Source: Myxococcota bacterium (lineage in GTDB: Bacteria; Myxococcota_A; SURF-8). Taken from it: DNA of 64,000 bases. The position numbers were made by a program, and so were the translations under genes. The notes under the pieces are model-generated. The model made no database searches. It was not told the origin of the DNA and was given only the letters and a program-made list of their open reading frames with translations. The DNA is taken from contig CAXXQS010000001.1 of NCBI GenBank assembly GCA_963674735.2, positions 256,001-320,000 on the forward strand, given 5' to 3'. Shown here piece after piece: positions 60,228 through 61,587 of the stretch. Numbering within the stretch: position 1 is the stretch's first letter; every line of letters begins with the position of its first letter.

Positions 60228-60253
60228 GTTGGAGCGTGTCTCCGACGGGCTCC
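60228..60253 (+). repeat. REP-like palindrome (family 4), identical to 61562-61587
   Basis: GTTGGAGCGTGTC-TCC-GACGGGCTCC. Confidence 0.75.
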
Positions 60254-60281: not shown

Positions 60282-60356
60282 GTAGGATGGGCAACTTGTT
60301 GCCCACCTTTAATGTGTTAATCATGATGTAATGATGGGCAACAAGTTGCCCATCCT
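60282..60356. repeat. Inverted GTAG-REP doublet (family 3); second REP interrupted by IS110
   Basis: GTAGGATGGGCAACTTGTTGCCCACC ... GATGGGCAACAAGTTGCCCATC-CT; the missing AC lies after the IS at 61533-34. Confidence 0.88.
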
Positions 60357-60370
60357 TGTATTATCCCTTT

Positions 60371-60579
60371 CAAGCGACTGTCATCGTTTGTGATGATAAG
60401 ATGAAACGACCTCCCGTAGCAAGCGGGAGGCCGTGGTGGGCGGCGAGATCGTCCCATCCTGGGGCCTGATGAGCCCGTTTTGTAGCCGGATCCGCCGTCC
60501 GTTTCGTCCGGGAAAACCCGAACAGTCGCAGGGGCCATTGTAATCGAAATGAGCCCGTATTGGCAAGGAAGGGTGCGCC
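60371..60579 (+). ncRNA. Predicted IS110 bridge RNA
   Basis: 5' hairpin 60410-30; target guides CCCATCCT (60453-60) and GTAG (60482-85); donor guides ACAGTCGC (60522-29) and CAAG (60564-67), each pair separated by a GGGC..GCCC stem. RNA ends are inferred. Confidence 0.85.
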
Positions 60580-61515
60580 ATGAAGAAATGGATCGGGATC
60601 GACGTCAGCAAAGCCGTTTTCGATGTCGCCGTCGACGGCGAAAGCACGTGCGTCCGCTACGCTTACACCAAAGCCGGCATGACACGCTTCGTCCGTTCGT
60701 TGAAGCGGATCGAGGTGGAGGGCGTCGTGATGGAAGCCACCGGCGGCTACGAACGGGAGCTGTGCAAACGTCTTCAGAAAGCGGGTTGGCCGGTGGCGGT
60801 GGTCAATCCCCGGCGCATCCGGGATTATGCCCGCGCCGTCGGCGTGATGGCGAAAACGGATCGACTCGATGCGGGCATCATCGCACGCTACGCAGCCGCC
60901 ATGCGTCCCGCACCGAACGAAACGCTCGGCGAAACCGCCCTCCTGTTAAAAGCCCTGTCTTCACGGAGGCGGCAGCTGGTCGCCATGCGCACGATGGAGA
61001 AAAACCGCACCGAACACGTGGGCGATCGGACGATCGGACAAAGCCTGCACCGCATTCTGGAGGTGATCGAACGGGAAATCGAGCGGCTGGATCGGGCCAT
61101 CGCGGCGGCCATTGCATCGGATCGGGAGCGCAGCGACCGGGCCGCGCGGCTCCAAACGATGCCGGGCGTCGGCGCGTGCACGGCGAATCTTCTGGTGACG
61201 GATCTGCCGGAGCTGGGGATCTACAACCGGCGGCAGATCGCGGCGTTGATCGGCGTGGCGCCCATGAATCGGGACAGCGGAACGTTTCGGGGTAAACGCA
61301 TGACCGGCGGCGGTCGTCATCGCCTGCGCACGGCGCTCTACATGCCGACGCTGGTGGCGATTCAACACAACCCGGTGATTCGCGGACACTACCAGCGGCT
61401 GGTCGGACGCGGCAAACCGAAGATGACGGCGGTGGTGGCCTGCATGCGAAAATTGGTCCTCATTCTCAACACGATGATGCGGAAAAACGAAGCCTGGAAC
61501 CCGAATTTCGCTTGA
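60580..61515 (+). CDS. IS110 family DEDD recombinase/transposase
   Basis: GIDVSK, VMEATG, KTDRLDA (DEDD), PGVG and DSG (Tnp serine) motifs. Confidence 0.96.
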   Translation: MKKWIGIDVSKAVFDVAVDGESTCVRYAYTKAGMTRFVRSLKRIEVEGVVMEATGGYERELCKRLQKAGWPVAVVNPRRIRDYARAVGVMAKTDRLDAGIIARYAAAMRPAPNETLGETALLLKALSSRRRQLVAMRTMEKNRTEHVGDRTIGQSLHRILEVIEREIERLDRAIAAAIASDRERSDRAARLQTMPGVGACTANLLVTDLPELGIYNRRQIAALIGVAPMNRDSGTFRGKRMTGGGRHRLRTALYMPTLVAIQHNPVIRGHYQRLVGRGKPKMTAVVACMRKLVLILNTMMRKNEAWNPNFA

Positions 61516-61561
61516 CACCGATAACAGTCGCTACTCACTACTCACTAATCATCATTCCCGT

Positions 61562-61587
61562 GTTGGAGCGTGTCTCCGACGGGCTCC
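61562..61587 (+). repeat. REP-like palindrome (family 4), second copy
   Basis: 26/26 identical to 60228-60253. Confidence 0.75.

What the first reader, a model, noticed from the sequence alone, without database searches (positions are those of the whole stretch)
60355..60386. IS110 left end carries an inverted copy of its own donor junction: possible built-in anti-guide or decoy
Seen: 60371-60386 (CAAGCGACTGTCATCG) is the reverse complement of CGATGACAGTCGCTTG, a 15/16 match to the circle junction CGATAACAGTCG-CT-TG, including the core. Three consequences are inferred. (a) In the circle it forms a 16-bp inverted repeat with the -10 box in the 12-nt loop. (b) It is the predicted 5' end of the transcript and is complementary to the donor guide ACAGUCGC, so it could fold back and silence the donor-binding loop until processed. 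(c) The integrated element keeps an intact donor-like site on the bottom strand, which could act as a decoy, an autorepression site over the TSS, or a substrate for inversions with REP targets. I do not know of this being described for IS621-type elements. Caveat: 14 of the 16 nt pair with the right end alone, so it may be a subterminal inverted repeat.
Basis: partly seen in the sequence, partly recalled or inferred. Interest (0 to 1): 0.8.

Follow-up and report, generated by a model that had tools for sequence, protein, structure and literature searches.

The report
Inverted donor copy inside IS110 end
A bridge-RNA-guided insertion sequence carries, just inside its left end, a backwards copy of the right-end sequence that its own guide RNA reads; the repeat is real and kept in a few relatives, but its function is untested.

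Summary
Window 60371-60386 is the reverse complement of the circle junction (right end 61519-61530, core CT, first two left-end bases) at 15 of 16 positions. It lies in an IS621-type IS110 element (60357-61532) that has 8 near-identical copies in this genome, all inserted in the same REP palindrome.

It is not chance and not part of the target. It is also not a general IS110 feature. Among 51 distinct relatives with mapped ends, only this element and two relatives from the same order carry a significant inverted junction copy, at the same place (LE 15-26/30). A weaker 8-mer version (at least 7 of 8) is found in 6 of 17 elements of the lineage with donor ACAGTCG. Multi-copy relatives with a decayed segment show it is dispensable.

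The strict covariation test was impossible, because every carrier has the same donor.

The complementarity runs past the guide footprint into the right end. Relatives place the motif at or before the predicted transcription start. I therefore favour, at about 0.3, a DNA-level role: on the joined ends, especially a top-strand single-stranded circle, the segment folds back and supplies the strand that the left donor guide reads. No RNA or biochemical data were available.

The parts
60333..60354 (+). REP palindrome that forms the left flank of the insertion. Its last 6 nt (60349-60354) are the left target half.
   Evidence: The same 22 nt precede all 8 copies. Many REP copies occur in the genome. 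It scores as a hairpin.
60355..60356 (+). Left copy of the CT core.
   Evidence: Present in all 8 copies.
60357..60579 (+). Left non-coding end (LE), which encodes the bridge RNA.
60359..60364 (+). -10 box TATTAT of the junction promoter. It pairs with the -35 box in the right end only when the ends are joined.
   Evidence: One search lists the same hexamer. Its function is inferred.
60371..60386 (+). THE FINDING: an inverted copy of the right-end left donor half (LD), the core and the first 2 nt of LE (15 of 16). Its 8-mer at 60374-60381 is complementary to the left donor guide.
60406..60434 (+). 5' stem-loop of the bridge RNA.
   Evidence: Inverted pair I14. A hairpin sits at this place in all 5 near relatives.
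60437..60501 (+). Target-binding loop. The left target guide (60453-60460) is identical to 60349-60356. The right target guide GTAG (60482-60485) is complementary to CT+AC at 61531-34.
   Evidence: Consensus fold with compensatory pairs and motif positions.
60517..60573 (+). Donor-binding loop. The left donor guide ACAGTCGC is at 60522-60529. The right donor guide part CAAG is at 60564-60567.
   Evidence: [quoted passage not shown]
60580..61515 (+). IS110-family DEDD/serine recombinase gene, 311 aa.
   Evidence: PF01548 at 3e-22 and PF02371 at 8.3e-19.
61512..61517 (+). -35 box TTGACA of the junction promoter. It overlaps the stop codon.
   Evidence: Inferred.
61519..61532 (+). Right-end arm of the inverted repeat: 12 nt of RE including LD ACAGTCG (61524-61530), plus the core CT (61531-32).
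61533..61535 (+). Conserved right target half (ACT), the remainder of the REP arm.
   Evidence: ACT in 7 of 8 copies and ACG in 1.

Best explanation
The segment is a lineage-restricted subterminal inverted repeat of an IS621-type, bridge-RNA-guided IS110 element. It places on the top strand, 4-12 nt downstream of the right donor half, a copy of what is normally the bottom strand of the left donor half plus core.

Shown here:
- The repeat is real.
- It is kept at the same place in relatives whose recombinases are only 57-59% identical.
- It is absent from most of the family.
- It is dispensable.

Inferred mechanism: it acts at the DNA level once the ends are joined. In the top-strand single-stranded circle that two recent preprints propose as the copy-out intermediate, it folds back on the right end. 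That restores a duplex over LD and core and gives the left donor guide a strand to pair with. The right donor half and the -10 box stay single-stranded in the loop. A single-stranded circle would then be a complete donor for the RNA-guided recombinase.
For: 1. Real and not chance.

2. Under constraint:
- LE 15-26 is 10 of 12 identical to G009 and to G006. The bridge-RNA loops are 114 of 138 identical, and the rest of the leader only 36-40 of 59.
- At least 7 of 8 of the inverted LD 8-mer is found at LE 10-25 in 6 of 17 elements of the ACAGTCG lineage. None of 4000 random 8-mers did this in more than 4 elements.

3. A relation to the right-end DNA rather than only to the RNA guide:
- In this element 6 of the 7 positions outside the 8-nt guide footprint still match the junction.
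- In G006, RE -11 is A instead of G and the facing LE base is T instead of C, when one bulge is allowed (my reading).
- In the sister clade the motif sits at LE 10-17, right after the -10 box at LE 3-8. It would therefore be mostly untranscribed from the junction promoter.

4. Hairpin stability: -14.9, -12.1 and -10.0 kcal/mol for own, G009 and G006, z -5.8 to -3.8.

5. Pairing across the junction recurs in the family:
- RE -8 with LE +6 is complementary in 39 of 44 elements, as three different pair types.
- L058, L060 and L080 have 8-10 bp junction hairpins of another geometry.

6. Literature, passages read:
- For CazIS110, top-strand ssDNA donors integrate, but the LD-RT junction forms about 20-fold less well than with dsDNA (Sun et al. 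preprint). That is the side for which a single strand lacks the guide's pairing partner.
Against: - There is no experiment and no RNA or circle data for this element.
- All carriers share one donor, so strict covariation is untested. There is only one compensatory position.
- In G009 the RNA duplex with the guide region (-19.0 kcal/mol, 13 paired positions by my count) fits better than the DNA repeat (11 of 12, then a bulge).
- In L259 the base flanking the motif matches the RNA loop rather than the junction.
- In the sister clade the junction hairpins are weak (z -2.4 to +1.2).
- G004 (8 copies) and G003 (at least 4 intact copies) have a decayed segment or none.
- For IS621 a 22-bp donor suffices when the RNA is given in trans (Durrant et al., passage).
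- The ssDNA-circle model itself rests on preprints.
Confidence: 0.3

Rival explanations
1. RNA anti-guide. The junction-promoter transcript starts at about 60371-72, so its first 10 nt pair with the left donor guide. This silences the donor-binding loop until the leader is removed or displaced, a self-restraint on transposition.
For: - The minimum-free-energy fold pairs 60374-81 with 60522-29 in this element and in G006. The summed pair probabilities are 7.5 and 10.2.
- Leader-to-guide duplexes score z -3.4 (own), -4.4 (G009) and -3.8 (G006).
- By my tally, 4 of the 10 substitutions in the 8-mer across relatives are C-to-T, which keeps a G.U pair.
Against: - The start site is only predicted.
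- G009's own minimum-free-energy fold does not use the pairing, and neither do G004 or G003.
- In the sister clade the motif lies at or before the predicted start.
- In this element the similarity continues into right-end sequence that has no partner in the RNA loop.
- The consensus fold of 8 relatives has no such helix.
- G.T is also the mildest DNA mismatch.
Confidence: 0.25
2. Relic with little or no present function. An ancient inverted duplication of the junction is inherited and slowly decaying.
For: - The distribution is patchy. The segment is decayed in G004, G003 and most of the sister clade.
- Copy number does not track its presence: 8 copies with it in this genome, 8 without it in G004.
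Against: - At 45-62% protein identity, neutral non-coding sequence should be randomised.
- The 8-mer is nevertheless kept at 7-8 of 8 in 6 of 17 elements from two clades, at two different offsets.
- It is as conserved as the guide loops in G009 and G006.
Confidence: 0.2
3. Double-stranded decoy or autorepression site. The RNA-protein complex binds the LD-core half-site beside the left boundary and the start site. This competes with the true right end, blocks the promoter, or gives inversions.
For: - The half-site matches LD 7 of 7 and core 2 of 2.
- Half-matched sites are used by IS621 and IS110 according to the Xie et al. preprint (abstract, section 6) and the Hu et al. preprint (abstract only).
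Against: - None of the 8 copies has the hybrid ends expected after inversion. The 16 motif hits are exactly 8 + 8 in their normal context.
- The true donor site already overlaps the promoter spacer, so a second operator is not needed.
- No binding data exist.
Confidence: 0.1
4. A protein-recognised subterminal inverted repeat of the IS1111 kind, serving end recognition by the recombinase.
For: IS1111 relatives have 11-13 bp subterminal repeats (Siddiquee et al., passages).
Against: - The geometry differs: the right arm includes the cleavage core and the left arm starts 14 nt inside the element.
- The non-coding region is upstream of the gene, as in the IS110 type.
- End recognition in this type is explained by RNA guides, and the guides are matched here.
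Confidence: 0.05

Closest known systems
IS621 / IS110-type bridge-RNA recombinase elements (Durrant et al. 2024, Hiraizumi et al. 2024 and 2026)
   Same: - Same two Pfam domains.
- A left-end non-coding RNA with a 5' stem-loop, a target loop and a donor loop.
- CT core.
- A promoter split across the joined ends.
- Insertion into a REP palindrome without duplication.
- Guides that match the flanks and ends.
   Different: - About 40 extra nucleotides lie between the -10 box and the 5' stem-loop.
- These include an inverted copy of LD plus core.
- I found no mention of such a copy in the passages and sections I read.
- It is absent from 48 of the 51 relatives examined.
Subterminal inverted repeats (sTIR) of IS1111-family elements (Partridge and Hall 2003, known here only from citations; Siddiquee et al. 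2024)
   Same: A short, near-perfect inverted repeat just inside the ends. The arms face each other across the junction of the circle.
   Different: - IS1111 repeats leave 7 bp on the left and 3 bp on the right outside the arms. They accompany a downstream non-coding region.
- Here the right arm runs through the donor half and the core. The left arm starts at LE 15, and the RNA is upstream of the gene.
- Siddiquee et al. state that in the IS110 type such repeats are absent, or short and imperfect.
IS200/IS605 elements (IS608, ISDra2), which move as single-stranded circles and use subterminal hairpins
   Same: The idea that a fold-back structure on one strand of a circular single-stranded intermediate makes the end recognisable.
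   Different: - Those elements use an unrelated HUH transposase that reads the hairpins directly.
- This comparison comes from the abstract listing and from general knowledge. It is an analogy, not a membership claim.
Cis-encoded antisense or occluding leaders that restrain transposition (for example in IS10 and IS200; recalled, not checked here)
   Same: A short complementary RNA segment that masks a functional RNA site.
   Different: Here the masked site would be a DNA-reading guide in a bridge RNA. No evidence shows that the leader is part of the mature RNA.

Membership tests
IS110 family, IS110/IS621 type (bridge-RNA-guided) | Recombinase with a DEDD (RuvC-like) domain and a Transposase_20 domain | tested here: met
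   PF01548 at 3e-22 and PF02371 at 8.3e-19.
IS110 family, IS110/IS621 type (bridge-RNA-guided) | Long non-coding region upstream of the gene that folds into a target-binding and a donor-binding stem-loop with internal loops | tested here: met
   The consensus fold of 8 relatives has 31 pairs, 7 of them with compensatory changes. The two stem-loops are at 60437-60501 and 60517-60573. No Rfam family reached its threshold.
IS110 family, IS110/IS621 type (bridge-RNA-guided) | Guide segments that match the target flanks and the element's own ends around a shared core dinucleotide | tested here: met
   - Left target guide: 8 of 8 with the left flank plus core.
- Right target guide: GTAG against CTAC.
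- Left donor guide: 8 of 8 with RE plus core C.
- Right donor guide: CAAG against CT+TG.
- The guide and the right end change together across relatives: ACAGTCG, ACAGTTG, ACAGCCG, ACAGTCA.
IS110 family, IS110/IS621 type (bridge-RNA-guided) | Site-specific insertion without target duplication, and a promoter formed only when the ends are joined | tested here: met
   All 8 copies are in the same REP position and orientation. The -35 box in RE and the -10 box in LE would lie 17 nt apart. Promoter activity itself was not tested.
IS110 family, IS110/IS621 type (bridge-RNA-guided) | A circular intermediate and an RNA bound by the recombinase | not testable with these tools
   No RNA run is listed. 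The contigs show no circle junction, but contigs drop rare forms.
IS1111 family | 11-13 bp subterminal inverted repeats with 7 bp left and 3 bp right extensions | tested here: not met
   The arms are at LE 15-30 and at RE -12 through the core. The geometry differs from that quoted.
IS1111 family | Long non-coding region downstream of the transposase gene | tested here: not met
   Only 15 nt of RE follow the stop codon. The 223-nt non-coding region is upstream.

The most novel reading that the evidence does not exclude
The element carries in cis the complementary strand of its own left donor half. Its excised top-strand single-stranded circle then snaps into a hairpin and becomes a complete, guide-readable donor. 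The distal 4 bp beyond the mismatch at RE -8 act as a clamp while the guide invades the proximal stem. This would be a natural 'self-complementing' ssDNA donor for a bridge recombinase. It would also be independent evidence, from sequence evolution, that single-stranded circles are real intermediates. A mirror version of the same novelty is that the same 8-mer acts as a natural removable anti-guide in the RNA leader.
Probability: 0.25. Interest if true: 0.8.

Novelty: new variant of a known kind. Interest (0 to 1): 0.5.

Why it matters
Bridge recombinases are being developed as programmable genome-writing tools. Whether they move through double- or single-stranded circles is currently disputed.

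A natural element that keeps an inverted copy of the exact sequence read by its donor guide points to one of two things:
- It may be a way to make single-stranded donors fully recognisable, which would be useful for hairpin ssDNA donor design.
- It may be a built-in switch that masks the donor guide, which would be useful for conditional bridge RNAs.

The finding also shows that IS110-type elements are not uniformly free of subterminal inverted repeats, contrary to the usual family description.

If the segment turns out to be a relic, the finding is a minor annotation detail.

Tried and rejected
Explanations rejected:
- Chance. Rejected.
- Part of the REP target. Rejected because the segment lies inside the unit shared by 8 copies with different flanks.
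- The segment acting as the -35 box of an internal promoter. The scan finds no plus-strand promoter-like site that uses it. I saw -10-like boxes further in by eye only.
- Intrinsic terminator of round-the-circle transcripts. There is no conserved U tract after the stem in G009 or G006 (my reading).
- Reconstitution of an ssDNA promoter. LE 31-38 does not pair with the -35 region (my reading).

Searches that did not help:
- The Rfam scan gave only sub-threshold chance matches.
- Attempts to enlarge the near clade:
  - The phylum search found matches in 5 of 401 genomes, all in the window's own order.
  - Plasmid tblastn gave at most 44% identity.
  - Viral contigs gave at most 40% identity.
Of the 80 loci kept, nearly all looked by eye like chance hits inside GC-rich coding sequence, and only L143 looked like an IS. 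This wasted the one chance to find closer relatives.
- No RNA holder is listed among the sequencing runs.
- Laying contigs of 3 runs from one study showed the IS as a collapsed unitig (word depth about 79 against about 11 for the flank). It showed no circle or inversion joint, but contigs cannot show rare forms.
- The literature search for anti-guide, decoy or sequestering language together with 'donor-binding loop' returned only unrelated papers in its top 12. It is therefore weak evidence that the idea is not in print.
- Supplementary files of the IS110 papers are closed and were not seen. Their ortholog tables could bear on how common the repeat is.

Rows dropped before counts:
- 19 of 85 loci had no guide and right-end match.
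- About 15 more had no callable left end, an out-of-range left end, or were duplicates, which leaves 51 elements.
- L072 and L079 are kept among those 51 with doubtful left-end calls.
- One search used the 44 elements whose left end starts with TGT[AG]T.
- One search used 17 elements: 5 from the window's own order and 12. It left out four other ACAGTCG elements (L074, L077, L134, L135), which showed nothing significant.

The report uses the values.

Full report
WHAT IS THERE

The window holds an IS110-family element.
- The open reading frame at 60580-61515 encodes a 311-aa protein with the two IS110 recombinase domains.
- The genome has 8 copies at 98-100% identity.
- Aligning their flanks fixes the ends. 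Every copy is preceded by the same 22-nt REP palindrome ending in CT. Every copy is followed by CT and then ACT (ACG once). After that the flanks differ.
- The left end (LE) therefore starts at 60357 and the right end (RE) stops at 61530. A CT core lies on each side, at 60355-56 and 61531-32.
- The 223-nt LE has the anatomy of a bridge RNA. A consensus fold of 8 relatives gives a target-binding stem-loop (60437-60501) and a donor-binding stem-loop (60517-60573). It has 31 pairs, 7 of them with compensatory changes.
- The guides fit:
  - 60453-60460 equals the left flank plus core.
  - GTAG at 60482-85 complements CT+AC on the right.
  - ACAGTCGC at 60522-29 equals the last 7 nt of RE plus core C.
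  - CAAG at 60564-67 complements CT+TG.
- Across 85 loci of relatives, the donor-guide 7-mer is found again just after the gene in 66. It changes together with the right end: ACAGTCG, ACAGTTG, ACAGCCG, ACAGTCA.
- A TTGACA box at 61512-17 and a TATTAT box at 60359-64 would lie 17 nt apart once the ends are joined. This is the split promoter described for this family (Durrant et al. 2024, passages read).
- Membership in the IS621-type group is therefore well supported. Rfam has no matching family above threshold.

THE OBSERVATION

- 60371-60386 is the reverse complement of the joined sequence (RE 61519-61530, CT, then TG) at 15 of 16 positions. Even with up to 3 mismatches allowed, only 0.6 matches are expected per 64 kb.
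- The repeat finder lists the 14-nt part that lies in the right end alone at 93%.
- Folded as single-stranded DNA, the joined ends give a hairpin with:
  - 11 pairs covering LD, the core and LE 1-2;
  - an A.C mismatch opposite RE -8;
  - 4 more pairs (RE -9 to -12 with LE 27-30);
  - a 12-nt loop (LE 3-14) that contains the -10 box.
- The energy is -14.9 kcal/mol with z -5.8, the strongest of 51 elements.
- All 8 copies have the segment unchanged.
- The 'donor-like site' on the bottom strand is a half-site: LD 7 of 7, core 2 of 2, RD 3 of 5.

HOW WIDESPREAD IS IT

- Close relatives exist only in the window's own order. Matches were found in 5 of 10 genomes there and in 5 of 401 genomes sampled from the phylum, which are the same five genomes. 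They give four other elements: G004 (62% protein identity), G009 (59%), G006 (57%) and G003 (54%).
- A scan of reference genomes added 80 more distant loci, at 39-50% identity by the scan's own figures.
- For 51 distinct elements with callable ends, I searched LE 10-80 for the best ungapped match to the reverse complement of that element's own junction. I compared each result with 300 shuffles.
  - Only three are significant: this element (15 of 16 at LE 15-30), G009 (11 of 12 at LE 15-26) and G006 (11 of 12 at LE 15-26), all with p at or below 0.007.
  - The next best has p 0.097.
  - No element with another donor sequence carries an inverted copy of its own donor.
- The feature is therefore not a family property.
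- The test also cannot be done inside the clade, because every carrier has LD ACAGTCG.

IS IT UNDER SELECTION

- Against this element, LE 15-26 is 10 of 12 identical in G009 and in G006. That is comparable to the guide loops (114 of 138). The rest of the leader plus the 5' stem-loop is 36-40 of 59 in a gapped alignment.
- I then fetched a sister clade from another phylum: 11 of 285 genomes had a match, and their recombinases are 44-51% identical to this one.
- In 17 elements of the ACAGTCG lineage, the inverted 8-mer (complement of LD plus core C) is matched at 7 or 8 of 8 in 6 elements and at 6 or more in 9. It always lies between LE 10 and LE 26.
- Of 4000 random 8-mers, none reached 7 of 8 in more than 4 elements. 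The elements are related, so this overstates independence.
- The motif sits at two different offsets (LE 18-25 in the own order, LE 10-17 or 15-22 in the sister clade), within leaders that otherwise do not align.
- I read this as weak but real purifying selection on the 8-mer.
- It is dispensable. G004 has 8 copies and G003 at least 4 intact ones, with 6 of 8 and 5 of 8 matches.

DNA OR RNA

The donor guide equals the donor by definition, so anything complementary to one is complementary to the other. Only the flanking positions discriminate between the two.

For a DNA-level relation to the right end:
- In this element, 6 of the 7 positions outside the 8-mer follow the junction (CAA on one side, ATCG on the other). 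By my count, at most 2 of them could pair with the flanks of the RNA loop.
- In G006, RE -11 is A rather than G, and the facing LE base is T rather than C if one bulged base is allowed. This is one compensatory change.
- In the sister clade the motif begins 2 nt after the -10 box. A transcript from the junction promoter would therefore start inside or after it.
- Pairing across the junction is a wider theme in the family:
  - RE -8 with LE +6 is complementary in 39 of 44 elements (A:T 4, C:G 22, G:C 13), against 0.41 after permutation.
  - RE -9 with LE +7 is complementary in 41 of 44, against 0.61.
  - L058, L060 and L080 have 8-10 bp hairpins centred on the core.

For an RNA-level role:
- The predicted full-length RNA of this element and of G006 pairs the segment with the guide in the minimum-free-energy fold.
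- Leader-to-guide duplexes are stronger than shuffles in G009 (-19.0 kcal/mol, z -4.4), G006 (-17.3, z -3.8), L056 (-13.6, z -3.8) and this element (-15.8, z -3.4).
- G009 fits the RNA loop better than it fits its own right end.
- Four of ten substitutions in the 8-mer are C-to-T, which keeps G.U pairs (my tally). G.T is also the mildest DNA mismatch, so this does not decide the matter.

The sequence evidence leans slightly toward DNA. It does not settle the question.

MECHANISM I COMMIT TO (confidence about 0.3)

- Two preprints report that IS110 elements excise mainly the top strand.
  - Xie et al. find a single-stranded LD-RD product for IS621 and propose an ssDNA circle (abstract, section 6).
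  - Sun et al. find that top-strand ssDNA donors of CazIS110 integrate and bottom-strand ones do not. On ssDNA the LT-RD junction forms as well as on dsDNA, but the LD-RT junction forms about 20-fold less well (abstract, passages).
- In the established model, the right donor guide reads the top strand and the left donor guide reads the bottom strand. I take this from the sections of Hiraizumi et al. 2026 read, and otherwise from recall of the 2024 papers.
- A top-strand circle therefore lacks the partner of the left donor guide.
- The segment described here is exactly that partner, written on the top strand 12 nt downstream of the right donor half (4 nt in the sister clade).
- On a single-stranded circle it would fold back and rebuild a duplex over LD and the cleaved core. 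It would offer the guide its target and leave the right donor half in the loop.
- The 4 pairs beyond the mismatch at RE -8 could hold the hairpin shut while the guide invades.
- Every step after 'the hairpin can form' is inference.

RIVALS

- The RNA anti-guide (0.25) would be a self-restraint device. It needs the leader to be in the RNA, which is unknown.
- A relic (0.2) fits the patchy distribution but not the retention of the 8-mer.
- A dsDNA decoy, operator or inversion site (0.1) has no support from the 8 copies. The motif occurs 16 times in the genome, 8 in each normal context, with no hybrid ends.
- A protein-read repeat of the IS1111 kind (0.05) does not fit the geometry. Siddiquee et al. 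describe 11-13 bp repeats with 7 and 3 bp extensions, and say that in the IS110 type such repeats are absent, or short and imperfect.

NOVELTY

- I found no description of an inverted donor copy in the left end of IS110-type elements. This rests on the search listings, the passages of Durrant et al., Sun et al. and Siddiquee et al., and the sections of Hiraizumi et al. 2026.
- One search was too unspecific to count.
- I rate the finding as a new variant of a known kind.
- For IS621, a 22-bp donor is enough when the RNA is supplied in trans. Any role for the segment is therefore accessory.

VERDICT

The feature is real, lineage-restricted and probably selected. It has two plausible pairing partners and no functional data. 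Interest 0.5.

Noticed in passing
44 relatives' ends (loci L032-L135); in the window, RE 61520-61523 with LE 60362-60365: The bases just outside the 14-nt donor pair across the junction and covary. RE -8 with LE +6 is complementary in 39 of 44 elements, as A:T, C:G or G:C. RE -9 with LE +7 is complementary in 41 of 44. This is a short IS1111-like subterminal repeat in IS110-type elements. It has no obvious promoter or guide explanation.
   Followed up: partly
L058, L060, L080 (junction of RE and LE): A Gammaproteobacteria group has an 8-10 bp inverted repeat centred on the core. The stem pairs RE -14 to -5 with LE 3 to 12. The junction hairpins score z -2.9 to -5.2. The geometry differs from the window's repeat.
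   Followed up: no
window 60389-60400, and the same place in G009, G006, G004, G003, L056 and the Planctomycetota loci L067, L073, L076, L078: Elements with a long left end have a second -10-like box, often preceded by TG, a few bases before the 5' stem-loop. It may be an internal promoter that would give a bridge RNA without the leader. I saw it by eye only, and the scan tool did not call it.
   Followed up: no
window 60228-60253 and 61562-61587: A second repeat family (about 26-31 nt, itself partly palindromic) flanks this copy on both sides. It occurs at many places in the genome at 93-97% identity. The first 50 nt or so of the right flank are shared between this copy and the copy in L002.
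   Followed up: no
window 60282-60356: Two REP palindromes in opposite orientation form a longer hairpin just left of the insertion. This explains the sub-threshold microRNA-like Rfam hits. Several other copies also sit in such REP pairs.
   Followed up: partly
L133, LE start: The first 13 nt of the left end (the right donor half plus a -10-like box) are repeated three times in tandem.
   Followed up: no
L032 (G004), LE 29-45: The G004 element has a second near-copy of the left-end start (a TGTATAAT box followed by GCGAC) about 28 nt inside the element. Its minimum-free-energy RNA fold pairs that GCGAC with the donor guide.
   Followed up: no
L064, L070, L075, L079, L088, L121, L132 (right flank): In the Marinobacter-type elements (donor ACAGTCA), the sequence after the right core is TGTTAT or TGTATA. 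It resembles the element's own left-end start, so their target's right half looks like the donor's right half.
   Followed up: no
L047, L050, L053 (G003): Two copies of the G003 element have a frameshift near residue 240, and one copy lacks the left end and the first 200 codons or so.
   Followed up: partly
window 60537-60566, minus strand: A promoter-like site (TTGCCA, 18 nt, TACAAT; 10 of 12) lies antisense within the donor-binding loop region. It may be chance.
   Followed up: no
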